Position numbers and translations under genes: made by a program
Part shown: positions 8,622-63,636 of the stretch, piece after piece
Layout of the letters: every line of letters begins with the position of its first letter
Position numbering within the stretch: the stretch's first letter is position 1
Notes under the pieces: model-generated
What the model saw: the letters and a program-made list of their open reading frames with translations, nothing else
Database searches by the model: none
Told to the model about the DNA's origin: nothing
Virus record (IMG/VR): IMGVR_UViG_3300042261_000762
Coordinates: 1-64,000 of that record
Strand: one strand, 5' to 3'
Origin: a virus
DNA: 64,000 nucleotides

Positions 8622-9620
8622 TTGAAAACTAGATCTGACATTGATCCTTATAACGAAGAAAAATGGGACGATAAAACTTTAGATGAAATACCATTATATC
8701 TTTCAGAGGATCAACCGAAAGTTTATGCTAATGGTTCTCCATTACAAAGACCTTGGACTGGAAAAAATCTAGTATTATTTAATAATAAAGATAAATATTA
8801 TGTTTTAGGAGAGATAAGATATACTCCTAGAGATTTTTTTATGTTTTATACTCATAGTGATAGTATAGAAAGAAAAAGACTTAATGAGTTTAGAGGCGAA
8901 ATTTTAAGAGAACTGAATAACAGAGAAAAAATACACGTTTTAGATATTTTATCAAAAGAAAGATTGTTTACTAGAAATCTTTTTGATAACGAAAATGGAA
9001 GAACTTACATTGATATAATAAATAATTTAATAAATGAAGACTTTCTAGTTAATATAGATGGAGCAAAACCAGTTCATAAAATCGCAAGATTTTCAGAATA
9101 TAGAAAAGGTTCATCTGAATACGGTCAACTTTTCCAGGATCTTATGATGATACTGAGAGCCAAGAAAGAAGAAGATAAAGGAAATGATGAAATAATTTTA
9201 AATAGGGAAGAATTCAAAGATTTCGATAAACTATTAAATTTAACTAATGACATCAAGAAAATGAGAAAATTAGGAATGACTTTCGACGTTGAAATACTGG
9301 ATAATGATAATATTAGATTCTCTAATTTAGGGAATAAACAATCCAGACCTTGGGAAAATTTAGATTCAGATCCATATGGAGAAGAAATATGGAACGAATT
9401 TGCTAATAAAAATGTTATTTATACTGGCAATAGATTCCCAGATAGACATAATCAACCTGTAGATGTAATAGAAGTAATTGAAGGAGAATATCCACAATTA
9501 TTCAATCATGTTAGAAATGAGTTAGTTACTGTAGGTCCAAAAGGGGAAGATATATATAGTATAAGATTCAAAGATGGCAAAGATCATAAATGCTTGAAGA
9601 AATTTCTAAAAATAATATAA
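8622..9620 (+). CDS. hypothetical protein with two DPY(G/N)EExW motifs
   Basis: ORF track; TTG start after a TATATA element. Confidence 0.75.
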   Translation: MKTRSDIDPYNEEKWDDKTLDEIPLYLSEDQPKVYANGSPLQRPWTGKNLVLFNNKDKYYVLGEIRYTPRDFFMFYTHSDSIERKRLNEFRGEILRELNNREKIHVLDILSKERLFTRNLFDNENGRTYIDIINNLINEDFLVNIDGAKPVHKIARFSEYRKGSSEYGQLFQDLMMILRAKKEEDKGNDEIILNREEFKDFDKLLNLTNDIKKMRKLGMTFDVEILDNDNIRFSNLGNKQSRPWENLDSDPYGEEIWNEFANKNVIYTGNRFPDRHNQPVDVIEVIEGEYPQLFNHVRNELVTVGPKGEDIYSIRFKDGKDHKCLKKFLKII

Positions 9621-9624
9621 AATA

Positions 9625-10035
9625 GTGAAAGACAATAATAACGTCATATTATTAAAGAAATTGATCAGTGATACTCAAAATAATACTATAGTTTGGGTAA
9701 AAGCTAATAAACCTGAAATTGGTTGGTATAGTTATCACGAAACATGGAAAGGGGATAAGAAAATAACTGATGATAAGAAACTATCATTTGTTTTGAATTT
9801 TTGTGTAAATGATTTAGCTTATGCTGAAGTTAGAGTATTTTTCATAAACGACCTAATAGAAACAAGAGAAAAAATAGCAGATGTAGAACCAAAGTTCTTT
9901 AGTTGGAAAACACAAAAATTTATAAAGATATTAATAGACGCTGTTAGACACCAAAAAGAATCAAGTGACGCTAATAGATTAAGACAAATAGTTGGTCCAA
10001 TGCCAAATAAAAATTTTGACGAAGTTGTTTACTAA
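9625..10035 (+). CDS. hypothetical protein (similar N-terminus to 16536..16937)
   Basis: LISDTQNNTIVW vs LIEDTFNNKVEW. Confidence 0.7.
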   Translation: MKDNNNVILLKKLISDTQNNTIVWVKANKPEIGWYSYHETWKGDKKITDDKKLSFVLNFCVNDLAYAEVRVFFINDLIETREKIADVEPKFFSWKTQKFIKILIDAVRHQKESSDANRLRQIVGPMPNKNFDEVVY

Positions 10036-10141
10036 AATTTTTTTATTCCAAAATAACATCGTATCTTTGTATCATAAATCAGGAAATGATAAAAATATTA
10101 ATAATAGGATTTATAATTTATTTCTTATTCTTTAGAAATAA

Positions 10142-10178
10142 AAATGGAAAAAATTGACTTTTTTTATAAAATATATAA
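10142..10178 (+). promoter_or_regulatory. conserved promoter block of tRNA array 1
   Basis: AAATGGAAAAAATTGAC-T-run-AATATATAA, repeated before all four leaders. Confidence 0.7.
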
Positions 10179-10226
10179 ACAAGTAACAAAAATTAGAGTA
10201 TAAACAATTACAAAAAAATAGAAATC

Positions 10227-10322
10227 ATGACTTACACCAGTAAACATAGTAAACATTCATCCTTTAGCTCAAAGTGGTTTACCACATTCGGGGTTGAAAC
10301 GGAATTGCTATGTGTAAGCTGA
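10227..10322 (+). CDS. attenuator leader peptide 1 MTYTSKHSKHSSFSSKWFTTFGVETELLCVS
   Basis: 31-codon ORF; codons 5-18 are only S/K/H/F/W; contains antiterminator strand TTCGGGGTT (10287-10295). Confidence 0.85.
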   Translation: MTYTSKHSKHSSFSSKWFTTFGVETELLCVS

Positions 10323-10341
10323 TAATAACATAGTATAACGG

Positions 10342-10379
10342 AAAACCCCGAACTCAAAAAGTTTGGGGTTTTTTATTTT
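10342..10379 (+). terminator. attenuator terminator of array 1
   Basis: AAAACCCCGAAC-tcaaaaa-GTTTGGGGTTTT plus U tract. Confidence 0.85.
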
Positions 10380-10400
10380 ATAGTTCTTTAATATATTCAT

Positions 10401-10483
10401 ACGGCAGCAGGCATTGGTGAGCCAAACAGTCTCCAAAACTGCGACCTGAAAGGGTCCTAAGCGTTCGATTCGTTTCTGCCGTG
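10401..10483 (+). tRNA. tRNA-Trp(CCA), atypical long variable arm
   Basis: Acceptor ACGGCAG/CTGCCGT, loop ct-CCA-aa, extra arm GACC-tgaaag-GGTC. Confidence 0.75.
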
Positions 10484-10566
10484 CTAAGTTCTTTGAAATA
10501 TTGTAGTGTTCAATTCTTCTAAAAATGATTCGAACAATTTAATATATAAATAAAAAAATATATTAT

Positions 10567-11115: not shown

Positions 11116-11148
11116 TTCATTGACATATTGAAAACCATAAAAGATTAA

Positions 11149-18938: not shown

Positions 18939-19130
18939 TTGTACTTGTATTCGATGAAAATGTTAAATATTAAAAATCTCGAAAATAAAATAAAATTGTA
19001 TCTCATAAAACGCAAGTTGAAGAATGAGATGCGTAAGTTATATTTACACGCTAATTTTAAAGAATATTATACTGTAAAAGGACAGAAATTTATTTTAGAA
19101 GATCCATTTGGTGAAGAAAACTGGGATTAA
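18939..19130 (+). CDS. small protein ending in DPFGEENWD
   Basis: ORF track; start probably 18953. Confidence 0.6.
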   Translation: MYLYSMKMLNIKNLENKIKLYLIKRKLKNEMRKLYLHANFKEYYTVKGQKFILEDPFGEENWD

Positions 19131-19399
19131 AATGCAATCGATTAGAAATATTTGGAATTCCATTAAAGAAAGAAAGAAGAAGTTAATACAACATAGTTTC
19201 ATCTATTGTTTATTATGATAATAAAATTATTTTTATATTAAATTTTATATACATTTTTTCTAGTGTATTTTTAAGTACAATGTTAATAAAAAAGGATTCT
19301 TTTTATATAACTTAAAAAAAATTAAAGGACAAATAATTTCACAAGTAGATCCTTACGGTGAAGAAAACTGGAATATTTAACAATTAAAATTTTATAGAT

Positions 19400-19946: not shown

Positions 19947-20186
19947 ATGATAAAGGACGATAAAGAATATATTTATTGGTTAAAGATATTAAGAAATAAT
20001 AAGATAAGCAAAGAAACTTGGTCTCAATTAAGTGAAGAAGAAGCTTCTACTTTCTTAAATAAAATCAGAGAATTAAGAGAATATTACTACGATAATAAAA
20101 GTAGATTCACCTTAGAAAAAAGATTGAAAAAATATAAACACCTATTATCAATAGATCCTTATGGTGAAGAAGATTGGGATAATTAA
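19947..20186 (+). CDS. small protein ending in DPYGEEDWD
   Basis: ORF track. Confidence 0.7.
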   Translation: MIKDDKEYIYWLKILRNNKISKETWSQLSEEEASTFLNKIRELREYYYDNKSRFTLEKRLKKYKHLLSIDPYGEEDWDN

Positions 20187-20198: not shown

Positions 20199-20630
20199 AT
20201 GAAAGTTGGAGATATAGTAAAACCCATTAGAAATACATGTAATCACGCCTATATTATTGGTAGAAAATATGAGATTACTGCTCAATATGTTAATGGTGGT
20301 GGTGGACCTATATACTGGTCTTTGAGAGATGTAGAAAATGGTACCGTTAACGGTACTTATATAGCAGAAGCAGATTTGGCTCTTTTCTCTCTCAATAGAA
20401 AAGAAATAGAGAATAAAATTAAAGAAATGGAAATAGAGATAGATAAAAATAAGAAAATGATTGAATATCTCGAAACCGAAAATAAAGATGAAGTTGATTC
20501 CAATGAGTTCTTCGCTTGGTACATAGTACGAATTATGGAATCTGAAGATCCTCGTAGAAAAGAAAGAGTATCAAAACTATTAAATTCTATCAGTAATAAT
20601 ATTAATTTTGATCAAATAATTTCAAGATAA
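20199..20630 (+). CDS. hypothetical protein, tandem paralogue A (SH3-like N-terminus plus coiled coil)
   Basis: Colinear and highly similar to 20643..21071. Confidence 0.8.
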   Translation: MKVGDIVKPIRNTCNHAYIIGRKYEITAQYVNGGGGPIYWSLRDVENGTVNGTYIAEADLALFSLNRKEIENKIKEMEIEIDKNKKMIEYLETENKDEVDSNEFFAWYIVRIMESEDPRRKERVSKLLNSISNNINFDQIISR

Positions 20631-20642: not shown

Positions 20643-21071
20643 ATGAAAATTGGAGATATTGTAAAACCAGTTGCTAATACTGTTGGACATAATTATATTA
20701 TAGGAAAAAAGTACGCGATAGCAAATCCATATAATAATGGAGGTGGAATAGCTTGTTGGTATCTTAGAGATCTGGAAACAGGAATTAACGGCACATCTTA
20801 TATTGCAGAAACTGATTTGGCGCTATTCTCTCTAAATAAGAAGGAATTAGATGATAGAATTAAAAAGATGGAATTCGAGATAGAAAGGGATAAGAAAATG
20901 ATGGAATATCTTGAATCAGAGAATAAGGATGAAGTTGATTCTACAGAATTCTTCGCTTGGTATATCGTTCAGATTATGGAATCTACTGATCCAAAAAAGA
21001 AAGAAAAAATTAGTAAACTTCTGAATTCGGTTAATAACAACGTTAATATTGATAATATTTTAACAAGATAA
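20643..21071 (+). CDS. hypothetical protein, tandem paralogue B
   Basis: MKIGDIVKP...DLALFSLN...EFFAWYIV shared with paralogue A. Confidence 0.8.
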   Translation: MKIGDIVKPVANTVGHNYIIGKKYAIANPYNNGGGIACWYLRDLETGINGTSYIAETDLALFSLNKKELDDRIKKMEFEIERDKKMMEYLESENKDEVDSTEFFAWYIVQIMESTDPKKKEKISKLLNSVNNNVNIDNILTR

Positions 21072-21834: not shown

Positions 21835-22365
21835 ATGATTAAAAAGTACTCGACTTATATTTTCGAAGCTGTGAAAACACCAATAGAAGATAACGTATTA
21901 TTGAATTATAATCAATGGTATCAGGACAACTACGATGCGTTTAAGACTGATATTATTGATGAACTCAAAAATAAATTAGTCGGTAAGACTATTTATATTG
22001 ACGGTAAGTATCAAAAACCCTACAGGAATTATAGACCTGGAGAAAAAAGGGAAGAAGATCCTTTAGATATTGAGATTATTTATAAAGGTAAAAATGTCAA
22101 ACGTCTTTATAAAATTAAAGTCAAAGATGTACAATATGATGGTAGTCATACAAGAGAAGTACAGTGTGTTGAATTAATTGATGAAGATGGAAATAGATTT
22201 AAGTTAAAAAGAATAGTTACTAAAGAACAATATGATAGATTCGCTAAAAAAGCGGAGGGGGCATTAAAAGAAATCGAAGAAAAGAAAAGAAAGAAAGAAG
22301 AATTACGATTGAAACATGTGCATCACGATCCATATGGAGAAGAATTATGGGAGGATGATGATTGA
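21835..22365 (+). CDS. putative virion-internal protein (CTS-like N-terminus, DPYGEELW)
   Basis: MIKKYSTYIFE; TATATA element upstream. Confidence 0.7.
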   Translation: MIKKYSTYIFEAVKTPIEDNVLLNYNQWYQDNYDAFKTDIIDELKNKLVGKTIYIDGKYQKPYRNYRPGEKREEDPLDIEIIYKGKNVKRLYKIKVKDVQYDGSHTREVQCVELIDEDGNRFKLKRIVTKEQYDRFAKKAEGALKEIEEKKRKKEELRLKHVHHDPYGEELWEDDD

Positions 22366-44047: not shown

Positions 44048-45082
44048 ATGATTAAATTATTTGATAATTTCATTAATGAACAATACGAATTAGATCCTTA
44101 CGGTGAAGAAAATTTGGATGATAATGTTAAAGTTAGAATTGCCAAATGTAAAAAAGATTTCAAAATAGGGCGTGATAAGGTAGTGCTGTTTCATAAAGGG
44201 GATGAATATGAAATAGTAGATGATCACGATTGGGACGGATTTATGATTCTCAAAACTCAAATACATGGAACTCCACATAATCACGCAATACCATTAAATA
44301 ACATGTATAAAGATTCTTTTTGGAAACATTTTATTATTAAAGAAAATATTAAATCTGATGTAGATCCTTATGGTGAAGAAAATTGGAATGATTTGGAGCC
44401 AGTTGATGATGTAGTTCTAAGATTTCGAAATTATTATAAATGTGTTGAATGTGGCAATGAATGGGAAGATGAATGGGATTCTACTTGCGATGATGAATGT
44501 CCAAATTGTGGCACTATAATGACGCCATATGAAAGCGAAGATATAAATGAATCTTTTACAGAGGATGATCCTTATGGTGAAGAAATATGGAATGACATTA
44601 AACCGGATCCAATAAATAGAGATACTGAAATAGAAATTGGTGATAAGATATATTATCATTACGATAGAAATAATATCGAACCAGCATTCATGGGTGAAGT
44701 TGAAAGAATAATTAATCACCCTAAGTTTGGATTTGTTGATTATTTAATATCTGGAAAATATTCTCGAGAAATCAGTAAAATGAATTTGATTGGATGTGGG
44801 GCTAGAATAATAAAAAGGACAAATGAGACAATAAATATTGATCCTTATAATGAAGAAAATTGGAAAGATGAAGAGGAATTTAATATTGGTGATGAATTAA
44901 TTTGTAAAGAAGATATAATGACATCTACTGGCAAATATTGGCTGTTTCATCAAGGAAAAACGTATAGTATAATTAGAGTTACACATGATTGGATATTCGT
45001 TCTCACGAAATCTTTAGGACACGAAGTTAATATTCCTTTCACAAGAAAGGGCATTTGGAAAAGTTTCGATAAAAAAAATTAA
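44048..45082 (+). CDS. modular protein: four small domains each opened by a DPYxEE motif
   Basis: CTS-like start; includes a CxxC...CPxC zinc ribbon and two related SH3-like modules. Confidence 0.8.
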   Translation: MIKLFDNFINEQYELDPYGEENLDDNVKVRIAKCKKDFKIGRDKVVLFHKGDEYEIVDDHDWDGFMILKTQIHGTPHNHAIPLNNMYKDSFWKHFIIKENIKSDVDPYGEENWNDLEPVDDVVLRFRNYYKCVECGNEWEDEWDSTCDDECPNCGTIMTPYESEDINESFTEDDPYGEEIWNDIKPDPINRDTEIEIGDKIYYHYDRNNIEPAFMGEVERIINHPKFGFVDYLISGKYSREISKMNLIGCGARIIKRTNETINIDPYNEENWKDEEEFNIGDELICKEDIMTSTGKYWLFHQGKTYSIIRVTHDWIFVLTKSLGHEVNIPFTRKGIWKSFDKKN

Positions 45083-49362: not shown

Positions 49363-49605
49363 ATGAGAATAATAGCACAATCTTTACTGTTTATACTCAA
49401 CAAGTGGAATTTATCAATGGATGAATTCAATCCTATTGGTAAATTTTTATGGTATATACCAAATTTTCTAAATAACGTTTTAACACAGATTTTTTATTTC
49501 TGTTTATTCCCGTTTGTCTGTTTGTATTTTTATCTACACGAGAAGTCACAACTATACATTTTAATGTATAAGTTATTTTTAATACTTTTGAAAATTAATC
49601 AATAA
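49363..49605 (+). CDS. small hydrophobic protein
   Basis: ORF track. Confidence 0.5.
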   Translation: MRIIAQSLLFILNKWNLSMDEFNPIGKFLWYIPNFLNNVLTQIFYFCLFPFVCLYFYLHEKSQLYILMYKLFLILLKINQ

Positions 49606-50428
49606 CTCTAATTGGAGCCTGTTTAATGTGGTCTAATTCTGAGAACGGTGGTTTATAAACATGCCATCTTCCTTTTGGATCTAGTAATACTATTTCCTTC
49701 TTACGATCTCCTGGTTCTTTCATTATAACATCAGATACAAGGAATCTATCCTTGAATTTATATCCTCTTCTCATTTCATTTCCAATCCCTTCAGGAGTCA
49801 TTATTATAGTTTTATTTAGAAGTTGATCTTTTACTAATTTTATTATTTGATTATCAGTCATTCTTCCGAAATCCTGTAGAGAAAACGAAACAGTATTATC
49901 TTCTCCTTGTTCTTCCCATTCTTCTTCACCATACGGATCTTCTTCATCGTGATTAGCTTCTTCTTTGCCATCCTCATTTTCTAAGACTCTTAAAAATCTT
50001 CTACATCTAGCCAATCCCTCTTGTTTTTTATGATTTCTAGCTAATTTATCTGGGTTCCTCATTATATTCTCTATAACTACTTTAATATCTTCCGCTAAAT
50101 CCGCGTAGTTATTTTCGGCATACTCTTGAGCCATGTGATCAACTAGGGTTTTAAGATCTTCGTCAGACATTTTATCCATAGCTTTGTTTGTCAAATCATG
50201 CATATTATAAAGAAGACCTAATTTTTTGGATCTTGCTATAAATATATCTAATTCTCTAAAGACTCCTCTCATCGGTTTCGACCAGAAAAATAATGCTTTT
50301 AATACTCCTAATAAAGCATGTGCTTTAGCAAAACTATATTCGAGTTTGACTCTTCTACCAAATCTTTTAACATCTTTCCAATTTAATTCTTCATTTACAA
50401 ACTCATCGTATCCTTTAATATTGTTCAT
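49595..50428 (-). CDS. putative virion-internal protein (CTS-like start, DPYGEEEW)
   Basis: MNNIKGYDEFVNE. Confidence 0.75.
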   Translation of the reverse strand: MNNIKGYDEFVNEELNWKDVKRFGRRVKLEYSFAKAHALLGVLKALFFWSKPMRGVFRELDIFIARSKKLGLLYNMHDLTNKAMDKMSDEDLKTLVDHMAQEYAENNYADLAEDIKVVIENIMRNPDKLARNHKKQEGLARCRRFLRVLENEDGKEEANHDEEDPYGEEEWEEQGEDNTVSFSLQDFGRMTDNQIIKLVKDQLLNKTIIMTPEGIGNEMRRGYKFKDRFLVSDVIMKEPGDRKKEIVLLDPKGRWHVYKPPFSELDHIKQAPIRVID

Positions 50429-51461: not shown

Positions 51462-52478
51462 ATGTGCATGATAAGAAAATTTGAGTTATTCGAGTCCAAA
51501 GAACCATTTAATCCAAATATACATGAAGGAGATAGAATAATAATAACCAATGGAAAACATAAAAATCAAACTGGAGTGGTAATATTTGTGGAATCTCCAG
51601 AAGATTGTGGATTTATCGTAAACGATGTTGAAGTTAGAATGGATTATACTGAAAAGGAAATAGGGTTTAAATTTTCAGATATCGAAAAATTAGATCCAAT
51701 CGTTAATGTTACATCGGAAGACCCATACGGTGAAGAAGATTATAGAAACGATCCATGGGAAACATTTAGATATATAGAATACATAAGAGAAAACGAACTT
51801 AGGCTTGATGGTAAGCATGGATTCTTTATGTTCTTAAAACTCATAGACGATATGAAGATGCATTTTATTAAGACAAATCATTTTCTTAACGTTGGTAAAT
51901 ATCAATATTTCTTTACAACAGAAGCAATAAGAAGAAAAGATGAATTTATGGCATATTTCAAAGATTCTTTGTCTCTTAAAGTTACTTGTAGTACTGCTTT
52001 AAGAATAAAAGATGAAAGATTATCTTTTTATTTCGGTGTTAAAGGAAATAAATTGGAATATGGATTCCACGACGACATGAAAAGAGATATTTATAAGACT
52101 GGAATATTTGATATAAATACAAGATATTTAAGAAGTTTAAAATCTTATAAATGTTTAGTTCTTATCGAGAATATATTAAAATATTCTAACATATCTAATT
52201 TGAATCTTCTACAAGAAATTAAATCGCATTTTAAAGGGTGGTATGAAGGAAAAGGTAATGTATTAATATTGAATGAAAACATGATTAGAAAAACTCTTAA
52301 AAGAGAAGATATACATGATGATGCTAAAGAATCTGTAGCTTTATTACAAAAGTATGAAAAATGGTGTGAGAAATTTAAGTGGTGTAATAAAGTATATTAT
52401 TATATAGATAATGAGGAAGAGAATGAAGTAGATTTTTATATTAAAATAAAACCTAAAAAGAATGTTGAAGAAGTTTGA
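51462..52478 (+). CDS. KOW-motif protein with DPYGEE
   Basis: GDRIIITNGKHKNQTGVV. Confidence 0.75.
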   Translation: MCMIRKFELFESKEPFNPNIHEGDRIIITNGKHKNQTGVVIFVESPEDCGFIVNDVEVRMDYTEKEIGFKFSDIEKLDPIVNVTSEDPYGEEDYRNDPWETFRYIEYIRENELRLDGKHGFFMFLKLIDDMKMHFIKTNHFLNVGKYQYFFTTEAIRRKDEFMAYFKDSLSLKVTCSTALRIKDERLSFYFGVKGNKLEYGFHDDMKRDIYKTGIFDINTRYLRSLKSYKCLVLIENILKYSNISNLNLLQEIKSHFKGWYEGKGNVLILNENMIRKTLKREDIHDDAKESVALLQKYEKWCEKFKWCNKVYYYIDNEEENEVDFYIKIKPKKNVEEV

Positions 52479-52797
52479 ACAGTTTAATGATCCTTATGGT
52501 GAAGAAAACGATGATGTAATGTTAGAGCCACCTGAAGATTATTCTGGAGAAAATAGAAATCTGGAAGAAATTCTATCTGTTCTTGATAAAAAAGGATTTA
52601 TAGAGGGCGATGATTTATTCGATGAAGAGTATGATATTATTGATAATAATTTAGTTGATATAATATATAGAGGAGTAAATTTATCAGATAATTGTAATCT
52701 TTTTCAACTCGGAGAACTTATTGTTAGTCTTGATAAAGGAGATGAATATGGCCAAGGTTATTATCTGGCCAAAATAGATAGAATGGAAGAAGAATGA
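52462..52797 (+). CDS. acidic protein with N-terminal DPYGEE
   Basis: ORF track. Confidence 0.7.
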   Translation: MLKKFEQFNDPYGEENDDVMLEPPEDYSGENRNLEEILSVLDKKGFIEGDDLFDEEYDIIDNNLVDIIYRGVNLSDNCNLFQLGELIVSLDKGDEYGQGYYLAKIDRMEEE

Positions 52798-53114
52798 TAA
52801 AAAGATATAAAATATTTGAACAAATTGACGATCCTTATGGTGAAGAAGTTGATGAATTCACAGACGGAAAAGACGAATTTGATGTAGAAGATCTTGAATT
52901 TTTAAATGGAAACGCTGAAACAAAATTCACATTAAATTATAAATTGTTTAATGATTGCATTACGTTTGAAGTATTTTACGATGATATGGGATATAATTAT
53001 TATGAAATATATAATAAAAATGAACTCCCTGAGAATATAATAAATTTATTAGAAGAATACAATGATGAAATTAGAATAAAATTACAAGAAGATATAAGAA
53101 ATGGGAGATTTTAA
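52794..53114 (+). CDS. acidic protein with N-terminal DPYGEE
   Basis: ORF track. Confidence 0.7.
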   Translation: MIKRYKIFEQIDDPYGEEVDEFTDGKDEFDVEDLEFLNGNAETKFTLNYKLFNDCITFEVFYDDMGYNYYEIYNKNELPENIINLLEEYNDEIRIKLQEDIRNGRF

Positions 53115-56025: not shown

Positions 56026-57036
56026 TTATTTTAGAAAATCGTAATCTATAATGATATTAATTTTTATTAGAAGATCGCCTCTCTGATGGGGATTCATCAA
56101 TAACCCTTTTCCAGCTATACGTAAAAGTTCCCCGTCTTTTGTTTTTGGTGGAATTTTCAGAGCATATTTTTTACCATCGAGATGCTCATATTCAAAATCA
56201 TATCCATCAACTGCATATTGATAATGTAAATCTAAATGATAAATAAGAGTAGCTCCTTCTCTCGTGTAATGTGGATCATGATTATATTCCGCGTCAATAA
56301 TTAAAGTGCCAACTTTATTGGCATAATGTTTCGATTGATGTCCCATTCCTTTAATATATTTGACAAAACTTTTATCTACTGTAAAAACATTACCAAAAGC
56401 AAATTCCTCTTCTTTTGGAATTACTTTACTGCCATTACATTTTGTACAAGTTCCCGTATGAATTTTTCCAGTTCCATTACAATATTTACATTTGGTGAAT
56501 CCGTCGCCGCCCTTACCATCACAAGCATCGCATTCAAACTCATCTCCTTTTGGATCAAACCCCGTGAAATTGCAGTTATTACATTTTACATTGTGTGTAA
56601 ATTTAACTGGTATATTGCTATTATTATAAACATCTTTTAGTGTAACTTTAGTTGGAAAATGAATATCTAAATCTTCTGGAAATTCTTCTTTTCTATTAAA
56701 AATATCTCTAAAGAAAGGATCATTAAATGGACTTCCAAAATTACCAAAAGCTTCAAAAGGATTAAATCCACCACTACCACCAAATGTGAATCTAAATCCA
56801 CCAAAATTATTCGGGTTGTAATTTTTCCCATGCGGACTTTGAATATCATATCTACTACGCATTCCTTCGTCGCCTAACGTTTCATAAGCTTCTGAAAGAT
56901 CTTTAAATTTATTTTCATCACCTCCTTTATCTGGATGATGTTCTTTTGCTAATTTTCTATAAGATGAAATAATTTCCTTACTAGTTGCATCTTTATTTAA
57001 TCCTAATATTGAGTAATAATTTTTTTCACAATTCAT
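56026..57036 (-). CDS. dnaJ: DnaJ chaperone
   Basis: J domain with HPD, G/F-rich region, CxxCxGxG repeats, C-terminal domain. Confidence 0.95.
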   Translation of the reverse strand: MNCEKNYYSILGLNKDATSKEIISSYRKLAKEHHPDKGGDENKFKDLSEAYETLGDEGMRSRYDIQSPHGKNYNPNNFGGFRFTFGGSGGFNPFEAFGNFGSPFNDPFFRDIFNRKEEFPEDLDIHFPTKVTLKDVYNNSNIPVKFTHNVKCNNCNFTGFDPKGDEFECDACDGKGGDGFTKCKYCNGTGKIHTGTCTKCNGSKVIPKEEEFAFGNVFTVDKSFVKYIKGMGHQSKHYANKVGTLIIDAEYNHDPHYTREGATLIYHLDLHYQYAVDGYDFEYEHLDGKKYALKIPPKTKDGELLRIAGKGLLMNPHQRGDLLIKINIIIDYDFLK

Positions 57037-58007: not shown

Positions 58008-59009
58008 GTGATAACTAAGTTTAAATTATTTGAAGCCAATAAGTACACAGACTATGATCCTGATGGTAACTTTAACGTCGGTGATAGAGTCATTGTTAAT
58101 GGTCATTATGTTAATATAACTTTCAAGGGGGAATCAGGAACAATAATTAATTTTTATGAAGCCGGAGATAATAGTAAAAAAAGGGAGATTTTAATTAGAT
58201 TTGACAGTAGATTTAATACAGATTTAATGTCGGGTGATAACAATGAAGATCCAAGTGGGACTTCATATTATGTCACTAGTGATTTGGTAGAATTGGAAGA
58301 TAAAACTCCTGGGAAAATTAAATGGTATAGTAAGGGTCTTTGGGAGAAATATAATGAAATAGATCCATATAATGAAGAAGACTGGGATGACAAGAATCAA
58401 ATATTTGTAATGTATAAAGGTTTTATGGCGGGCGAAGGACAAAGCTATCATTTACATGTAGTTGTTAATAAACATTATGGTGGAAACACAAACGGTCAAT
58501 ATCTTTGGGATGTAGATAAAAGAGGAATGCCTGATGTTGTTAAATGCGTTTCAGTATATGATCCACGTAGACATAAATTTGCTAGTAGTGAAGAAATAGA
58601 GAAATATTTAGATTTAGAAAAATTAGAGTCGGTATTTAATTATAGAAATGGTGAAGTTAGAGAAAGTGTTAAATGGTATAAAAATGGAAATTTTGAAAAT
58701 GAGCCAGAATGTAAACATGGTAAACATGAATATGTATTAACTCAGAAAGCAACATTTGATAAAAACACATTAAAACCATATTATAAAAATGAAATAAAAT
58801 GTAAAAGATGTGGTAGTGTTAAAAAATATTGTAAGCACGCTTGGTCATATTATGATCTAGTTACACAAGATAGGAATGGAAATAATAAAGTAAAACATTT
58901 GTTAAGATGTACCAAATGTGGAGAGTATGAAACAGATTTATCAAAAATGCCAAAAGAAAAGGGTGATAGTTTTTCGACAAAAATTAAAAAAATAATCAAA
59001 AAGAAATAA
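58008..59009 (+). CDS. modular protein (SH3-like, DPYNEEDW, zinc ribbons)
   Basis: MITKFKLFE start; CKH...CxxCG repeats. Confidence 0.75.
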   Translation: MITKFKLFEANKYTDYDPDGNFNVGDRVIVNGHYVNITFKGESGTIINFYEAGDNSKKREILIRFDSRFNTDLMSGDNNEDPSGTSYYVTSDLVELEDKTPGKIKWYSKGLWEKYNEIDPYNEEDWDDKNQIFVMYKGFMAGEGQSYHLHVVVNKHYGGNTNGQYLWDVDKRGMPDVVKCVSVYDPRRHKFASSEEIEKYLDLEKLESVFNYRNGEVRESVKWYKNGNFENEPECKHGKHEYVLTQKATFDKNTLKPYYKNEIKCKRCGSVKKYCKHAWSYYDLVTQDRNGNNKVKHLLRCTKCGEYETDLSKMPKEKGDSFSTKIKKIIKKK

Positions 59010-59426
59010 TTGATAACGAAATTCAAAATATTTGAAAATAACACATTTAGTTTTAAGTTGGATGATATTCTATCACGAAATAGAATGCAAACAAATAGTG
59101 AAGCTGATCCTTACGGTGAAGAAGATTGGAATAATATTAATGAGGATTCTATAAAAAAAGAATTGATGGGAATAGTTTTAAATAGACACGTCGAGTTTAG
59201 AACTTTATCATCAGAAGGACCTTTATATAATAAAAAAGTTATCAAGGGTGTTGTTAAAGATGTTATTGTCAAATGGATACCCCATCATCTTGAATATTGG
59301 ATACTTTTTTTAATTAATGGTAAAAATCATTATGTTTATCCTAATTTAGATATAAAAGTTAAAGAAAATTTAATGGAACACATAGATATAGATCCTTATG
59401 GAGAAGAAAAATGGGATGAAGAATGA
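59010..59426 (+). CDS. small protein with two DPYGEExW motifs
   Basis: MITKFKIFE start. Confidence 0.75.
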   Translation: MITKFKIFENNTFSFKLDDILSRNRMQTNSEADPYGEEDWNNINEDSIKKELMGIVLNRHVEFRTLSSEGPLYNKKVIKGVVKDVIVKWIPHHLEYWILFLINGKNHYVYPNLDIKVKENLMEHIDIDPYGEEKWDEE

Positions 59427-62400
59427 TAAAGAAATTTAAAATATTTAAGATAAATGAAGGAATGTCATTAAATGACATAATATCCAAAGCTGAGAACAAA
59501 GGATACGGTGGAGATATTAGATATATCAAAAAAGATCTAGAGAATAATTTTCTTAATAAAAGAGTCAGAATATATAAAAAAGGCAAACCTTATGTAGAAA
59601 TAGATGTGGGAGCAATAGTTCGCGAAGGATTCACTTTTTATTTTGAGGCGTTGGAAGTTTTAGATATGGGAAATCGCGGCATGTATTGGAATTCTTATTC
59701 AGAAGCTGAGAAAAATACAATGATTGGTTTAGTAAAAGGACAAGATACTATTTTTATAAGAATAGACAGCGACGATGATATAGATATTATTGGTGAAGCG
59801 GATATTAAAAAGATAACAAGAAAGAAAGAACAGAGAAAATTAAGAGAATTAAAAAAAGACGTAGATCCTTATGGTGAAGAAGATTGGGGAGAAGACACTA
59901 ATAAAGTAATATCTAAATATGATATAAATAGCCCAGATGGACAAGAAAATTTATACAAAAAAGGCGAGGAATATGAAATCGAAACAAACGCAATACACGG
60001 TGATCTTATTGGAGTAAAAACAGAATTGTCATTTGGACAAAAATATGTTCATTATTTTAGAAGAGAAGACTTCAATGATTATTTTGATAGAATAACAGAA
60101 TCAATTGAAAATTTAGATCCTTATGGCGAAGAAAATTGGAATGATGATGAATCTCAGCTTTTTTTGGATTCAATTACTCGATACTTAGATATAAATGCAA
60201 AAATACATAATATTAAAGATAAATGGTATATTTATTTTGAAAAAGATGATGAATTTTATAAAATATGCAACAATGACGCTGGAAAAATACTTTTATATAA
60301 TCGCACAAATCATCATTCAATTGAATTAGTTGATAATGATATAGGTACAAAATTCGATTGGCTAAATATTAGATTAGCTATGCAAAAATTAGAACATAAA
60401 AAATCCTATGCAAAATTTCAAAATGAAAAAAGAGATTATAAAGACGTTGATCCTTATGGTGAAGAAATTTGGGCTGAAGAAGATGAATATAATTGGATTT
60501 ATATTAATGATCCATATGCTGAAGATGCTAATCCAACATTGAATTTATTAGAGCAACAAATAGGTAAATTTATTGTATTTAAGATTGATTGGACAAATGA
60601 ATATAAAGAAGGAGTTTTACAATCTGTTATGATTAATGTGCTTGGAGAAATAGAATTGGAGGTTGATAATCATTTTTATCTATTAGACGAAAGAGAAAGA
60701 ATAGGAGTAGCAAAGGAAAATATAATAACGGAACAGTATGATGAACAAGATCCATATGGTGAGGAAATTTGGAATGAAGATCCAAAATTTCAAATAGGAG
60801 ATAGAGTAGAATTTGCAAAAGATCCACCCAATAGATCATATTATTATCTGATTGAAGAATTTTTCCCGGATGATCGATCGTATAGATTGAGCATACACGA
60901 TAAAAATACCAATGAAAGATTTCCTGGTCATGTTTTGATAGATGAATTTAATTTAAAATTAGAAAATATAAAGGAAGAATTCAAGTGGAGAAATAAAAAC
61001 TATATTTATTATACTCAAACATTTATGGATAATAATAAAGTCAATAGAATAATGGAAAAAATTAGTCCTGAATGGATTACTAATAATCCTGTGGCTTTTG
61101 AAACATACAATAATAAATTATACTTAACTGAGGGACATCATAGATTTGAGGCTTGTTTAAGAAAGAATGATAAAAATTTATTAGAAACTTTATTTAAAAC
61201 TGCTTTATATTATCCAGTGAAAAGAGAACCTAGAAAATTTAAGAAAAAATATATTCCTGAAGATATTAAAATGATAAAAGAAAATAAAGAAATAACAGAC
61301 GAAAAGATAAAAGCAACCATTGATTTTATTTCTAAAACAATAAAAGGCACTGAATGGGAAGGTAAAGTTTATATGGCTGGCGGCGGCGTTAGAGACGAAC
61401 TCATGGGCAGAACTTCAAAAGATATAGATTTACTTATTAATGTACCAGACGGCGGAATAAACTTTGCTATATGGTTTACAAAGAAATTGAAAATATACAG
61501 AGAAGATAAAAATCCTGTTATCTATCCAAGATTTGGAACCGCTAAATTTACTCTAAGAAAACAAAAACATAACGGATTAGATTTATCAGGAATTGATATT
61601 GAATGTGTTATGCCAAGAAAAGAAACTTATACTGAAGGAAGTAGAGATCCAGAGGTAAGTCAAGGCACACTTAAAGATGATGTCGATAGGAGAGATTTTA
61701 CAGTTAATAGTTTGTTGAAAGATTTATCTACTGGGGAAATTCTAGACTTAACAGGAATGGGTAAAGAAGATATTAAAAGGGGAATAGTGAGAACTTCACT
61801 TAATCCTGATGTTATTTTTACTGAAGATCCTTTAAGAATGTTAAGAGCTATAAGATTCACAGTTAAATGTGATTGGGATTTACCTTTATTTATGATTAGA
61901 GCCTTAAAGAAGAACGCAAAACAACTTCAAATAATATCTTCAGAGAGAGTTCAAGATGAATTGAACAAAATGTTATTAACAGGTCATCCTGATAAGGCTA
62001 TAAGATTACTTCAGATAACGGGGTTGAGTAAATATATTTTCCCTGAACTTGATAAACTTATAAAAATGAAACAAAACAAGCATCATAAATATGATGCTAT
62101 GCGTCATTCTTTAGAAGTATTAAAGAATACTCCTCCAGATCTTGTAACAAGATTGTCTGCTTTATTACACGATATAGGTAAAAGTAAAACAAGAGAAATA
62201 ATTGATAATGAAGTTCATTTTTATGAGCATGAAAGGATTGGCGCATTTATGGTAAGGGATATATTAAAAAGGTTGAGATATCCAAAAGAAATAATAAATG
62301 CTGTTGTTATTGCAGTTGAAAATCACATGAAAACAAAACAGTCTGGAGATAAGGGAGATTTAAGTGATAGATCTTTAAGAAAATTGAAACAAGATTTGGG

Positions 62401-62737
62401 TCCACATCTTCAACAAACATTAGATTTAATTCACGCTGATAATATATCACATTCAGAAGAATCTAACATGCCAAATCAAGTAACTAATATCTTAAAAAGA
62501 TTTGCTGATTTGGAAGAAAGAGATAAACAAAAACAAAAACCAAATCCTTTAACTGGCAGCGAAGTAATGAAAATACTTGATATTAAAGAAGGACCAAAGG
62601 GTCCAGAAGATTCTAAAATGCGTCCTATTGTAGGAAAAATATTAAGATTATTGGGCGATATGTATTTAGATGACCCACATATGAGTAAAGAAGAATTAAC
62701 TGAAATAGTCAAAAAATCATACGAAGAATATAAATGA
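59423..62737 (+). CDS. cca: CCA-adding enzyme (class II nucleotidyltransferase plus HD) with an N-terminal string of DPYGEE modules (about 620 aa)
   Basis: GGGVRD..G..SKDIDL, FGTA, DVDRRDFTVN, EDPLRMLRAIRF, ERVQDEL.K, LLHDIGK; ParB-like EGHHRF..C upstream. Confidence 0.92.
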   Translation: MIKKFKIFKINEGMSLNDIISKAENKGYGGDIRYIKKDLENNFLNKRVRIYKKGKPYVEIDVGAIVREGFTFYFEALEVLDMGNRGMYWNSYSEAEKNTMIGLVKGQDTIFIRIDSDDDIDIIGEADIKKITRKKEQRKLRELKKDVDPYGEEDWGEDTNKVISKYDINSPDGQENLYKKGEEYEIETNAIHGDLIGVKTELSFGQKYVHYFRREDFNDYFDRITESIENLDPYGEENWNDDESQLFLDSITRYLDINAKIHNIKDKWYIYFEKDDEFYKICNNDAGKILLYNRTNHHSIELVDNDIGTKFDWLNIRLAMQKLEHKKSYAKFQNEKRDYKDVDPYGEEIWAEEDEYNWIYINDPYAEDANPTLNLLEQQIGKFIVFKIDWTNEYKEGVLQSVMINVLGEIELEVDNHFYLLDERERIGVAKENIITEQYDEQDPYGEEIWNEDPKFQIGDRVEFAKDPPNRSYYYLIEEFFPDDRSYRLSIHDKNTNERFPGHVLIDEFNLKLENIKEEFKWRNKNYIYYTQTFMDNNKVNRIMEKISPEWITNNPVAFETYNNKLYLTEGHHRFEACLRKNDKNLLETLFKTALYYPVKREPRKFKKKYIPEDIKMIKENKEITDEKIKATIDFISKTIKGTEWEGKVYMAGGGVRDELMGRTSKDIDLLINVPDGGINFAIWFTKKLKIYREDKNPVIYPRFGTAKFTLRKQKHNGLDLSGIDIECVMPRKETYTEGSRDPEVSQGTLKDDVDRRDFTVNSLLKDLSTGEILDLTGMGKEDIKRGIVRTSLNPDVIFTEDPLRMLRAIRFTVKCDWDLPLFMIRALKKNAKQLQIISSERVQDELNKMLLTGHPDKAIRLLQITGLSKYIFPELDKLIKMKQNKHHKYDAMRHSLEVLKNTPPDLVTRLSALLHDIGKSKTREIIDNEVHFYEHERIGAFMVRDILKRLRYPKEIINAVVIAVENHMKTKQSGDKGDLSDRSLRKLKQDLGPHLQQTLDLIHADNISHSEESNMPNQVTNILKRFADLEERDKQKQKPNPLTGSEVMKILDIKEGPKGPEDSKMRPIVGKILRLLGDMYLDDPHMSKEELTEIVKKSYEEYK

Positions 62738-63636
62738 AAGAATCTCTAATTACATATAAAGATTATAAAAGAAAAAGAAATTTCGCTATATGTGTTCATG
62801 ATGTGGTCGAATACGATTATTTAATGGATTTTTTAGAAGACAATAATTTTATATGGGGTGGATCAAGAACTCCCGTTAGGGATTTAAATCTCGCTAGATA
62901 TATTGGAGTTGAAGGAATATATATTTATATATCTTCATATAAAACTATTTCTTGGTCTGGATCATATCCCAAATCTGAAAAAGTTGTACAATTTAATGAT
63001 TTTTTTGTTAGAAGCAATATGAAAAAAATAGAAAGACCTGATCAAGATCCTTATAATGAAGAAGATTGGGGATATGAAACAAATGAACAATCTGACGCGG
63101 AACAATATGCAAAATTTCAAGATTATTATGGTAGATTAAAGGCTAAAAAAGAAGATGACGATTTATTTCCAATATTTAAAGTTGGAGATGAAGTAACTCC
63201 TGAAGATCCATATGGTGAAGAAGATTGGTCTGATAATTTTTATGAAAAAATGACAATTAAATTTTCAAGATTTTCTAAAATACAAGAAAATTCAAAGGAT
63301 GAAGAAATAATTTATATGAAAAATTTGTATGAAGAATATGATTATGTGTCTGATATTATAGAATATCTTAAACCGAAAATAATTGGTCATGAAATTAAAA
63401 TTCAAAAAAGAGATGAGAAAGGAGGGTGGAAAGATTTTATATTTGGATTAAATATTAATTATTATATTGAAAATATTTCAGGACATTATAATGATGATTT
63501 GAAAATAACATTATTAGTTAAACCAAAAGAAATTGGATGGGTTATGATTGATGAAAATTGTATATTAATAATAAAACCAATAGTTCGGGTTTTTTCTAAA
63601 AGCGATCCTTATGGTGAAGAAGTTTGGGAAATGTAA
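62734..63636 (+). CDS. modular protein with three DPYxEExW motifs
   Basis: ORF track. Confidence 0.75.
   Translation: MKESLITYKDYKRKRNFAICVHDVVEYDYLMDFLEDNNFIWGGSRTPVRDLNLARYIGVEGIYIYISSYKTISWSGSYPKSEKVVQFNDFFVRSNMKKIERPDQDPYNEEDWGYETNEQSDAEQYAKFQDYYGRLKAKKEDDDLFPIFKVGDEVTPEDPYGEEDWSDNFYEKMTIKFSRFSKIQENSKDEEIIYMKNLYEEYDYVSDIIEYLKPKIIGHEIKIQKRDEKGGWKDFIFGLNINYYIENISGHYNDDLKITLLVKPKEIGWVMIDENCILIIKPIVRVFSKSDPYGEEVWEM

What the first reader, a model, noticed from the sequence alone, without database searches (positions are those of the whole stretch)
8622..63636. DPYGEExW: a short linear motif pasted into at least 13 unrelated proteins
I count 23 copies of D-P-(Y/F)-(G/N)-E-E-x-(mostly W) in ORFs 8622, 18939, 19947, 21835, 44048, 49595, 51462, 52462, 52794, 58008, 59010, 59423 and 62734, plus one in a gene remnant near 19348. 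The motif sits at termini or between domains. Synonymous codons vary (cct/cca, tat/tac, ggt/gga/ggc), so selection is probably on the peptide. It often follows an xxE site within about 8 residues (INEQYELDPY, IKENIKSDVDPY, INESFTEDDPY, ITESIENLDPY, ITEQYDEQDPY). Inference: a docking or sorting tag for a common partner (capsid core, ejection machinery or a host hub protein) shared by a suite of effectors.
Basis: partly seen in the sequence, partly recalled or inferred. Interest (0 to 1): 0.8.

Follow-up and report, generated by a model that had tools for sequence, protein, structure and literature searches.

The report
Portable DPYGEExW tag, huge phage
A fragment of a giant (about 700-kb class) bacteriophage puts the same invariant eight-residue acidic peptide on about one protein in six, at ends and between modules of otherwise unrelated proteins; it looks like an undescribed address or docking label, probably tied to virion assembly, but its reader is unknown.

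Summary
The window holds 24 in-frame copies of DP[YF][GN]EE: 23 in 13 ORFs and 1 in a start-less remnant. Chance predicts 0.01. The full 104-kb contig has 43 copies. Its relative, the 735-kb phage LR756501, has about 109, and there the motif is by far the commonest peptide word (88 protein families). Four other huge phages have none, and 596 Gb of bacterial genomes show only scattered single hits.

With the tag masked, the carriers are unrelated. Tags sit just after a T4-like capsid-targeting leader, at the extreme C-terminus, or between ~100-aa modules. DNA identity stops at the tag. Between homologues the tag is better conserved than its flanks.

New evidence here:
- In LR756501, tagged proteins that are partial copies of untagged ones derive mostly from portal, prohead protease, scaffold repeats, major capsid protein and tail sheath.
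- The N-terminal leader matches the scaffold's own 14-residue repeat.
- A second, basic junction motif occurs in the same three contexts.
- Tag codon usage is homogenised within each genome.

Best reading (about 0.55): a lineage-specific docking label, most likely linked to prohead or virion assembly. No partner was identified.

This scan has already found the same tag on at least five other contigs of this lineage, with the same verdict.

The parts
8622..9620 (+). Carrier ORF (332 aa, no Pfam family). Tags at 8643-8666 (residue 8, N-terminal) and 9369-9392 (residue 250, internal).
18939..19130 (+). Small carrier ORF (63 aa). DPFGEENW tag at 19101-19124, one residue before the stop.
   Evidence: homologue in LR756501 keeps the tag
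19348..19371 (+). Tag copy in a 38-codon open stretch with no start codon. Its tail resembles the neighbouring 18939 ORF, so it is a decayed tandem paralogue (gene remnant).
19947..20186 (+). Small carrier ORF (79 aa). C-terminal tag at 20154-20177.
   Evidence: tag 7/7 conserved in the LR756501 homologue at 32% overall identity
21835..22365 (+). Carrier ORF (176 aa) with a CTS-like N-terminal leader. C-terminal tag at 22327-22350 followed by EDDD-stop.
   Evidence: the orthologue in LR756501 has DPYAEELW at the same place
44048..45082 (+). Four-module carrier (344 aa) with a CTS-like leader. Tags at 44093-44116, 44363-44386, 44567-44590 and 44840-44863 separate an unknown module, a zinc-ribbon module and SH3-like modules. 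The same modules occur in other combinations in homologues.
   Evidence: AF2 model is poor (pLDDT 47), with tag 3 in a low-confidence linker before the one confident module
49595..50428 (-). Carrier ORF (277 aa) with a CTS-like leader. Internal tag at 49916-49939 inside an acidic linker.
51462..52478 (+). Carrier ORF (338 aa): leader, KOW-like module, tag at 51720-51743 (Y instead of W at +7), then a conserved body. The LR756501 orthologue has only the body (65% identity) and lacks the N-terminal module and the tag.
52462..52797 (+). Carrier ORF (111 aa). The leader is followed directly by the tag at 52489-52512 (no W at +7).
52794..53114 (+). Carrier ORF (106 aa). The leader is followed directly by the tag at 52830-52853 (no W at +7).
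58008..59009 (+). Carrier ORF (333 aa): leader, SH3-like module, tag at 58362-58385 at a module junction. It also has two copies of the second, basic junction motif (K-W-Y-x-K/N-G), starting near 58320 and 58671. The LR756501 orthologue lacks the tag and has different downstream modules.
59010..59426 (+). Carrier ORF (138 aa): leader, tag at 59106-59129, and a C-terminal tag at 59391-59414. Its stop overlaps the start of the next carrier.
59423..62737 (+). CCA-adding/poly(A) polymerase-type nucleotidyltransferase with an HD domain (1104 aa). About 640 N-terminal residues form an extension with a leader and tags at 59864-59887, 60116-60139, 60449-60472 and 60749-60772, plus a degenerate DPYAED at 60509.
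   Evidence: Pfam PolyA_pol 7e-21, PolyA_pol_RNAbd 1e-17, HD 2e-9; the LR756501 orthologue also carries 4 tags in a diverged N-extension
62734..63636 (+). Carrier ORF (300 aa, no Pfam family). Internal tags at 63046-63069 and 63205-63228, and a C-terminal tag at 63604-63627.

Best explanation
DPYGEExW is a lineage-specific, portable short linear peptide motif kept by selection on the protein. In extended form it reads [S/T]-[D/E]-[I/L/V]-D-P-Y-G-E-E-x-W-[E/D/N]-[D/E], with a Lys-rich stretch upstream and an acidic stretch downstream.

It most likely acts as a common docking handle. Two aromatic anchors (Y and W) in an acidic frame sit on flexible ends and inter-module linkers, and one shared reader protein would bind them. 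In this way dozens to about a hundred unrelated proteins per genome would be brought to one place. The cargo includes LRR binders, small SH3-like and zinc-ribbon modules, and a few enzymes such as the CCA-adding enzyme in this window.

The most likely place is the assembling virion, especially the prohead core. The tag is significantly associated with an N-terminal leader that copies the T4 capsid-targeting sequence and the phage's own scaffold repeat. Several tagged proteins are also built from pieces of portal, prohead protease, scaffold, major capsid protein and tail sheath.

Shown: the motif's reality, its portability, its peptide-level conservation, its restriction to one lineage, and these associations. 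Inferred: that it binds a reader, and that the destination is the prohead or virion.
For: 1. Far above chance and in frame. The window has 24 copies against 0.01 expected. The 104-kb contig has 43, of which 41 lie in real ORFs. LR756501 has 109 six-frame copies, 105 of them inside called genes, with 0 in the reversed controls.

2. Portable. After masking, 205 tagged ORFs fall into 129 BLAST clusters. DPYGE/PYGEE is the top 5-mer of the LR756501 proteome, in 88 families; the next non-low-complexity word is in 12.

3. Position-independent. In a pooled set (the whole 104-kb contig plus about 0.9 Mb of IMG/VR loci of the same lineage), about 31% of ORF-assigned copies lie within 10 residues of the stop and about 26% within 45 residues of the start. 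The rest lie between modules. Multi-tag proteins carry up to 12 copies at a median spacing of ~118 aa.

4. Peptide rather than DNA. DNA identity is 0.86-0.90 inside the 18-nt core and falls to 0.36-0.41 in the flanks.

5. Conserved above background. The tag core is 72% identical against 47% for the rest in G000/LR756501 homologue pairs. Tags are gained and lost exactly at module junctions.

6. Exposed. In the AF2 model of a tagged LRR protein (mean pLDDT 92.5), the leader has pLDDT <50 and the tag is non-helical coil at ~70-79, ahead of the well-folded domain.

7. Lineage-specific. Four other huge phages have 0 copies. In 596 Gb of prokaryote genomes there are 72 single hits and none are multi-copy.

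8. Link to the virion. Leader and tag co-occur with odds ratio 5.6, p = 5e-10. The leader regex is 14-35-fold enriched at N-termini and hits the protease-scaffold protein 14 times. The T4 CTS is MKTYQEFIAE and is cut off by the prohead protease (PMC8442874; PMC3012670). In LR756501, tagged partial copies derive from portal (Pfam 1e-69), protease-scaffold, MCP (three times) and tail sheath (twice). In this contig, ORF 70970-71506 matches the LR756501 MCP at 53% over 55 aa, E = 8e-13 (Pfam Gp23 hits).
Against: - No reader protein was found and no multimer modelling was possible.
- Some carriers are ordinary cytoplasmic enzymes (tRNA nucleotidyltransferase, tRNA methyltransferase, GNAT, deaminase), with no obvious reason to be in a capsid.
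- The genuine head genes of LR756501 (portal, protease-scaffold, MCP) carry no tag.
- About two thirds of tagged genes lack a recognisable leader.
- Sheath fragments do not belong in a prohead.
- Tag codon usage is homogenised within each genome, so some DNA-level copying or gene conversion also operates.
- The second AF2 model was too poor to say anything about three of the four tags.
Confidence: 0.55

Rival explanations
1. Processing signal. The motif is the recognition site of a high-specificity phage protease, either the T4-type prohead protease or another one. Multi-module proteins would be polyproteins cut at every junction, and leaders would be removed at the tag. Gene fusion and fission at tags would then be neutral.
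For: Tags lie at every module junction at a regular spacing of ~88-133 aa, with up to 12 per protein. The same modules occur fused or separate in different genomes, and internal 'leader plus tag' units show fused genes. Eight conserved residues is comparable to the sites of specific viral proteases (general knowledge). The lineage has an S77-type prohead protease, and the scaffold repeat carries I-A-E sites every 14 residues. G-E-E fits the (S/A/G)-x-E rule of phiKZ-type proteases (own knowledge, not tested).
Against: About 31% of copies sit 2-4 residues from the stop, where cleavage would remove almost nothing. Yet these copies are as well conserved as the others, including between orthologues. 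The expected T4-type site (I/L-x-E) is in the leader and scaffold, not in the tag. An upstream hydrophobic-x-E is only weakly enriched, and position -2 is D more often than E.
Confidence: 0.15
2. Passive junction or linker peptide. The motif is a favourable structural cap (an Asp-Pro helix or turn start with an acidic spacer). It spread through a family of shuffling modules because its near-identical 18-24 nt promote in-frame recombination. It has no dedicated partner.
For: Modules are demonstrably shuffled at tags. Tag codon usage is homogenised within each genome and differs between the two genomes, as expected from copying or gene conversion. A second, unrelated junction motif occupies the same three contexts, and in one orthologue pair it aligns with the tag. 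An enolase-like Lactobacillaceae protein has the same eight residues (preceded by SIE) as an ordinary structural loop.
Against: A passive linker would not keep seven residues invariant across 88 families, and linkers normally drift fast. The tag is also kept at extreme termini, where nothing is linked. The motif is more conserved than the folded parts between homologues. DNA homology of 18-24 nt with synonymous differences is short for efficient homologous recombination.
Confidence: 0.15
3. Modification site. The invariant Tyr in an acidic frame is the substrate site of a phage-encoded enzyme (kinase, nucleotidyl- or glycosyl-transferase, sulfotransferase) that marks many proteins at once.
For: The motif has an invariant Tyr with flanking Gly and Glu residues. 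Acidic Tyr sites are typical substrates of Tyr-modifying enzymes. The only literature hits for the hexapeptide are eukaryotic phosphotyrosine sites.
Against: No candidate enzyme was identified. The equally invariant Trp five residues later and the Asp-Pro are not explained. F replaces Y in about 2-3% of copies.
Confidence: 0.05
4. DNA- or RNA-level element. The repeat is a dispersed nucleic-acid signal (recombination site, translational enhancer or Shine-Dalgarno carrier) that merely happens to be translated.
For: The 18-nt core is 86-90% identical among copies, with a biased consensus GATCCTTAYGGTGAAGAA. In one tandem array the W-E-D-stop codons spell a GGGAGG Shine-Dalgarno sequence for the next gene.
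Against: All but 2 of 43 copies are in the reading frame of a real ORF, on whichever strand codes. All synonymous variants occur. Nothing is conserved outside the codons. Copies inside long ORFs have no downstream start to serve.
Confidence: 0.02

Closest known systems
Phage T4 capsid targeting sequence (CTS, MKTYQEFIAE) of internal proteins IPI-III and Alt
   Same: It is a short peptide shared by otherwise unrelated proteins that loads them into the prohead core (PMC8442874, PMC3012670). The phage lineage here has a T4-type head module: portal, S77-type protease and Gp23-type MCP. Many tagged proteins begin with a peptide very like the CTS.
   Different: The CTS-like element here is the N-terminal leader, not DPYGEExW. 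The tag has an unrelated sequence, and it also occurs at C-termini and internally in up to 12 copies. It carries no I/L-x-E site, and it is absent from other huge phages that do have the leader.
Encapsulin cargo-loading (targeting) peptides
   Same: These are short terminal peptides on unrelated cargo proteins that dock to the inside of an HK97-fold shell. They can be N- or C-terminal and sit on flexible linkers (own knowledge).
   Different: The consensus sequence is different. Cargo genes here are not adjacent to the shell gene, there are about 100 carriers per genome, copies are internal and repeated, and binding to the capsid protein is untested.
Eukaryotic acidic-aromatic short linear motifs (kinesin light chain W-acidic motifs, DPF/DPW adaptor motifs) and, by logic, dockerin-cohesin or poxvirus ankyrin-PRANC systems
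   Same: Many unrelated proteins carry one small handle read by a hub. The motifs have aromatic anchors in an acidic, disordered context, are often multivalent, and evolve by gain and loss (own knowledge).
   Different: Those are eukaryotic or cellulosomal systems with known reader domains. No homology is claimed and no reader is known here.
Propeptide and processing motifs of giant phages (phiKZ, SPN3US: S/A/G-x-E)
   Same: Giant myoviruses load tens of proteins into the head and trim them at short motifs (PMC5694885, PMC7411985, PMC10052503; listed, abstracts only).
   Different: Those motifs have three residues and are defined by cleavage. The tag has eight invariant residues and is often placed where cleavage would be pointless.

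Membership tests
T4-type capsid targeting sequence | About 10-residue peptide at the extreme N-terminus resembling MKTYQEFIAE | tested here: not met
   The tag has an unrelated sequence and is N-terminal in only ~26% of copies. The separate leader on the same proteins does meet this feature.
T4-type capsid targeting sequence | Ends in a prohead-protease site (I/L-x-E) | tested here: not met
   There is no such site inside the tag, and an upstream site is only weakly enriched, 47% against 32%. The leader does end in I/V/L-x-E.
T4-type capsid targeting sequence | Phage has a T4-type head module with a gp21-like protease and scaffold core | tested here: met
   In the relative LR756501: Portal_T4 1e-69, head maturation protease phrog_207 5e-27, Gp23 2e-25. 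None of the three families searched (Gp23 MCP, S77 protease, scaffold) turned up as a full-length gene in this 104-kb fragment, which holds only MCP fragments.
T4-type capsid targeting sequence | Fusion to the peptide is sufficient for packaging into capsids | not testable with these tools
   The phage is uncultivated and no proteome is available.
Short linear motif (ELM sense) | Short (3-12 residues) and occurs independently in non-homologous proteins | tested here: met
   129 clusters among 205 carriers; 88 families in LR756501.
Short linear motif (ELM sense) | Lies in flexible or disordered regions outside folded domains | tested here: inconclusive
   One good model shows the tag as coil at pLDDT 70-79 next to a disordered leader. 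The other model is too poor. Terminal and junction positions agree with this feature.
Short linear motif (ELM sense) | Conserved relative to its flanks, with evolutionary gain and loss | tested here: met
   72% against 47% identity; gain and loss at junctions.
Short linear motif (ELM sense) | A defined reader domain binds it | not testable with these tools
   No multimer prediction or binding assay was available. The DnaJ gene inside the cluster does not co-vary with the tag.
Encapsulin-type cargo-loading peptide | Cargo gene adjacent to the shell gene, and peptide consensus of the known families | tested here: not met
   Tagged genes are scattered, and the head module itself carries no tags. 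The consensus differs (own knowledge).
Dispersed DNA repeat (REP/MITE-like) | Occurs regardless of frame and in non-coding DNA, with similarity extending beyond a fixed coding word | tested here: not met
   41 of 43 copies are in the frame of real ORFs. Flanks are 0.36-0.41 identical.
Viral polyprotein cleavage site | Found only between mature products, with cleavage demonstrated | tested here: inconclusive
   Junction spacing fits. However, 31% of copies are at the extreme C-terminus, and cleavage cannot be tested.

The most novel reading that the evidence does not exclude
The largest known phages run their own protein-addressing system. It would use a T4-like N-terminal leader that mimics one scaffold repeat, the acidic DPYGEExW handle, and a basic [V/I]-[K/R]-W-Y-K-K-G-K-L handle. 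Together these would route more than 10% of the proteome to the assembling virion or to a viral factory: binders, enzymes, and adaptor proteins assembled from pieces of the phage's own portal, protease, scaffold, capsid and sheath proteins. The two oppositely charged handles might even pair with each other.
Probability: 0.3. Interest if true: 0.85.

Novelty: new variant of a known kind. Interest (0 to 1): 0.7.

Why it matters
Very little is known about how 500-735-kb phages organise about a thousand gene products, and these phages are uncultivated. One invariant eight-residue label on about 9% of the genes of the largest phage genome (about 18% in this fragment) gives a concrete, sequence-defined entry point. 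The label can be synthesised, fused to reporters, used as bait, and screened in silico against every phage and host protein.

If the label loads proteins into capsids, it defines the injected arsenal of these phages. It could also serve as a packaging tag for engineered particles, as the T4 CTS already does.

The tagged mosaics of structural-protein fragments are a further oddity with no described counterpart. The motif also works as a cheap lineage marker for sorting metagenomic contigs.

Tried and rejected
1. Alternative genetic code or readthrough linking ORFs at C-terminal tags. Rejected: the standard code gives dense coding, stop usage is normal, and none of the 40 tRNAs found in the window is a suppressor.

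2. The tag as part of one recurrent domain (an SH3-like 'GD' strand downstream). Only 12% of copies against 8% background. Rejected.

3. Host mimicry. A scan of 185,579 prokaryote genomes gave 72 single hits. About 18 are one enolase-like Lactobacillaceae protein, some are beta-propeller repeats, and a few are probably misbinned phage contigs. None is multi-copy. No support.

4. An equivalent tag with a different sequence in a tag-less Mahaphage. An unbiased 5-mer census of 400 kb of LR745206 found only N-terminal leader words. No support.

5. It is present in all five huge phages, including the four without tags. No correlation.

6. A larger mobile DNA cassette around the tag. Flank identity is at background. 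Rejected.

7. A Shine-Dalgarno function for the W-E-D codons. True only in one paralogous array outside the window.

8. Literature. The hexapeptide retrieves only eukaryotic phosphosite papers. 'Mahaphage' papers were retrieved, and the only one opened (searched for three terms) showed nothing on the motif.

9. Homologue search for the four-tag protein gave only 6 relatives, so the second structure prediction was too shallow to be useful.

10. Pfam and PHROG searches of the most tag-rich metagenomic proteins gave almost nothing.


Full report
**What the window is**

The window is the first 64 kb of a 104,107-bp IMG/VR viral contig, estimated about 32% complete. It has 30% G+C, 40 tRNA genes and the standard genetic code. 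Genes in the window include a Trp/Tyr-type and a class I aminoacyl-tRNA synthetase, EF-G, a radical-SAM/methyltransferase, MoxR/VWA-type proteins, a PfkB kinase and a DnaJ.

Its nearest named relative is LR756501.1, at about 78% nucleotide identity over a conserved stretch. LR756501.1 is the 735-kb genome of Al-Shayeb et al. 2020. It belongs to the Mahaphage clade and its predicted hosts are Bacteroidetes (PMC7162821).

A six-frame scan finds 24 strict DP[YF][GN]EE copies in the window. Markov-2 simulations expect 0.01 per window. The whole contig has 43 copies, 41 of them in the frame of real ORFs on whichever strand codes.

LR756501 has 109 copies, 105 of them inside called genes, and none in the reversed controls. 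The huge phages LR745206, LR756504, LR756502 and LR756508 have none.

A profile search of 1.84 billion representative proteins finds 422 proteins at E <= 1e-3, with up to 12 tags in one protein. A scan of 596 Gb of prokaryotic genomes finds only 72 single hits and never several in one genome. About 18 of these are one enolase-like Lactobacillaceae protein in which the same eight residues, preceded by SIE, are part of the sequence.

The motif is therefore real, specific to one phage lineage, and not borrowed from a host motif.

**Anatomy**

I pooled the whole 104-kb contig with about 0.9 Mb of IMG/VR loci of this lineage (312 six-frame copies). The consensus is [S/T]-[D/E]-[I/L/V]-D-P-Y-G-E-E-[D/N]-W-[E/D/N]-[D/E], Lys-rich upstream and acidic downstream. 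Of the 274 copies that fall in called ORFs:
- About 31% end within 10 residues of the stop.
- About 26% lie within 45 residues of the start.
- The rest lie between modules.

In multi-tag proteins the spacing is 88-133 residues, which is one tag per small domain.

With tags masked, 205 carriers form 129 BLAST clusters, and the 13 window carriers are all separate. In the complete LR756501 proteome (989 ORFs, 905 families), DPYGE/PYGEE are the commonest 5-mers, present in 88 families. The next non-low-complexity word is in 12.

Few carriers have known domains. Those found are a 22-member LRR family, the CCA-adding enzyme of this window (Pfam PolyA_pol, PolyA_pol_RNAbd, HD), GNAT, a deaminase, methyltransferases, a TPM domain and zinc ribbons. 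Only 12% of non-C-terminal tags precede an SH3-like strand, against 8% background, so the tag is not part of one domain.

**Peptide or DNA?**

Nucleotide identity among copies is 0.86-0.90 inside the 18-nt core but 0.36-0.41 in 45-nt flanks. All synonymous variants occur. The tag is therefore not a DNA repeat.

Codon usage inside tags nevertheless differs from the genome's. CCT and GGT are over-used in both phages. TAC is 74% in LR756501 tags against 35% genome-wide, whereas the tags of this contig use TAT 83%. This points to within-genome homogenisation, by copying or by gene conversion, on top of peptide selection.

Between homologous proteins of the two phages, the tag core is 72% identical against 47% for the rest. 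Tags appear and disappear exactly at module junctions. The same modules occur in different combinations, and internal 'leader plus tag' units betray gene fusions.

**Structure**

An AF2 model of a tagged LRR protein (21-sequence alignment, mean pLDDT 92.5) has the first nine residues below pLDDT 50. The tag is non-helical coil at about 70-79, ahead of a confident LRR solenoid.

The model of the four-tag window protein is poor (mean 47). Only one module is confident, and the tag before it lies in a low-confidence linker.

**Link to head assembly**

Nearly all N-terminal tags follow a leader of the type M-I-K-K-F-K-I-F-E or ...[F/Y]-x-x-F-[I/L/V]-N-E. The T4 capsid targeting sequence is MKTYQEFIAE. 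It loads internal proteins into the prohead core and is removed by the prohead protease (PMC8442874; PMC3012670).

The regex [FY]xx[FY][ILV]xE gave these results:
- It is 14-fold enriched at N-termini in LR756501 (56 genes against 4 expected).
- It is 35-fold enriched in this contig (14 against 0.4).
- It hits the LR756501 protease-scaffold protein 14 times, because that protein contains about 13 tandem 14-residue repeats of the type YSEYIAENLDKSID.

The leader thus looks like one scaffold repeat with its I-x-E protease site.

LR756501 has a T4-type head module: portal (Pfam 1e-69), head maturation protease (phrog_207, 5e-27) and Gp23-type MCP (2e-25). Basic leader-bearing paralogues lie next to it.

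Leader and tag co-occur more than expected: 29 genes, odds ratio 5.6, p = 5e-10. The leader is also present in the tag-less LR745206. The two signals are therefore separable, and the tag is the younger, lineage-specific one.

**Tagged fragments of structural proteins**

A note from another window of this genome claimed that five tandem genes at 70970-72699, just beyond this window, are capsid-protein fragments. I tested this.
- Three of the five hit different parts of Pfam Gp23 weakly.
- One matches the LR756501 MCP at 53% identity over 55 residues, E = 8e-13.

I then compared all LR756501 tagged proteins, tags masked, with the untagged proteome (identities). The partial matches go mostly to virion proteins:
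- Prohead protease domain (E = 1e-25).
- Scaffold repeats (6e-53).
- Portal: three scrambled ~30-residue pieces in one 173-residue protein.
- MCP, three times.
- Tail sheath, twice: the N-terminal and C-terminal regions.

These four proteins are well under 2% of the proteome, so the enrichment is large. This ties the tagged set to virion assembly, but I cannot say what the mosaics do. Adaptors, assembly regulators, decoys or interference with competitors are all possible.

**A second junction motif**

[V/I]-[K/R]-W-Y-[K/S]-K-G-K-L occurs 22 times in LR756501 (reversed control 1), 3 times in this contig and 0 times in LR745206. It appears in the same three contexts: after the leader, between modules, and near the C-terminus. 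In one orthologue pair it aligns with a DPYGEE tag. It is basic where the tag is acidic. Whether the two interact is untested.

**Interpretation**

The best-supported reading is a portable docking label read by a shared partner, most likely in the context of prohead or virion assembly (about 0.55 overall).

The rivals are:
- A high-specificity processing site (0.15). The regular junction spacing favours it. The many well-conserved copies 2-4 residues from the stop weigh against it.
- A passive cap or linker spread by recombination (0.15). Shuffling and codon homogenisation favour it. The invariance of seven residues across 88 families, and retention at free termini, weigh against it.
- A Tyr modification site (0.05).
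- A nucleic-acid element (0.02, essentially refuted).

Against the capsid version specifically: several carriers are ordinary tRNA-related or small-molecule enzymes, the true head genes carry no tag, and two thirds of tagged genes lack a recognisable leader.

I found no candidate reader. The DnaJ gene inside the tag cluster is present in all five huge phages, including the four tag-less ones.

**Known or new**

A full-text search for the hexapeptide retrieves nothing relevant. The closest known systems are the T4 CTS and encapsulin cargo-loading peptides. The tag fails the defining features of both: position, sequence, protease site and gene adjacency. It is therefore a new variant of the known idea of a portable targeting peptide, not a member of either family.

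Earlier agents of this scan reported the same tag on at least five other contigs of this lineage and reached the same verdict. I looked these up after forming my reading.

Added here:
- The structural-fragment enrichment.
- The match between the scaffold repeat and the leader.
- The second junction motif.
- The codon homogenisation.
- The negative scan of prokaryotic genomes.
- The 5-mer census of tag-positive and tag-negative genomes.

Noticed in passing
window 22387, 23589, 50736(-), 53101, 53873(-), 54232(-), 54948(-), 63772(-) and the tagged ORFs 21835, 44048, 49595(-), 51462, 52462, 52794, 58008, 59010, 59423: Many ORFs start with a peptide of the type M-x-K-K-[F/Y]-x-x-F-[I/L/V]-x-E, very close to the T4 capsid targeting sequence MKTYQEFIAE. 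The regex [FY]xx[FY][ILV]xE is 35-fold enriched at N-termini in this contig. It also matches the 14-residue scaffold repeat of the related phage LR756501.
   Followed up: partly
window ~58320-58337 and ~58671-58688 (ORF 58008-59009); also G000 84674-85039(-): A second, basic junction motif, [V/I]-[K/R]-W-Y-[K/S]-K-G-K-L. There are 22 copies in LR756501 (reversed control 1), 3 in this contig and 0 in a tag-less Mahaphage. It occurs in the same three contexts as the acidic tag.
   Followed up: partly
G000 70970-72699(-), i.e. L014:6970-8699, just beyond the window: Five tandem small genes each end in the tag. Three weakly match different, non-colinear parts of Pfam Gp23, and one matches the LR756501 MCP at 53% over 55 aa. 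In this array the W-E-D-stop codons spell GGGAGG 5-7 nt before the next start.
   Followed up: partly
LR756501: 11314-11850(-), 48028-48549(+), 145891-146127(+), 497197-498567(-), 552409-552918(-), 553796-554236(-), 554941-555297(-), 619760-620383(+): Tagged proteins built from pieces of the phage's own prohead protease, portal (three scrambled pieces), MCP, tail sheath (N- and C-terminal regions) and scaffold repeats. Their function is unknown.
   Followed up: partly
window 59423-62737(+): The CCA-adding/poly(A)-polymerase-type enzyme with an HD domain has a ~640-residue N-terminal extension of small modules separated by tags. The orthologue in LR756501 has a diverged extension, also with four tags.
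   Followed up: partly
window 6450-6536(-): ARAGORN calls a tRNA of undetermined identity with a four-base anticodon (atgg). It is one of 40 tRNA genes arranged in amino-acid-sorted arrays.
   Followed up: no
window 56026-57036(-): A full DnaJ (J domain plus C-terminal domain) lies inside the cluster of tagged genes. DnaJ is present in all five huge phages checked, so it does not co-vary with the tag.
   Followed up: yes
window 20199-20630 and 20643-21071(+): Tandem paralogues, each starting M-K-[V/I]-G-D-I-V-K-P (SH3-like start), sit directly after a C-terminally tagged gene. They carry no tag themselves.
   Followed up: no
G000 93380(-), upstream of ORF 92518-93360: A tag copy lies in a 19-codon open stretch without a start codon, 17 nt before the next gene's ATG. 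It is probably the remnant of a decayed upstream gene.
   Followed up: no
L142, L198, L206 (3.3-kb contigs binned as Bacteroidetes/Bacteroidales lake MAGs): Three near-identical small contigs in Bacteroidota MAGs carry a 100-residue ORF ending in a typical C-terminal tag. They are probably misbinned phage fragments, which fits the predicted host phylum.
   Followed up: no
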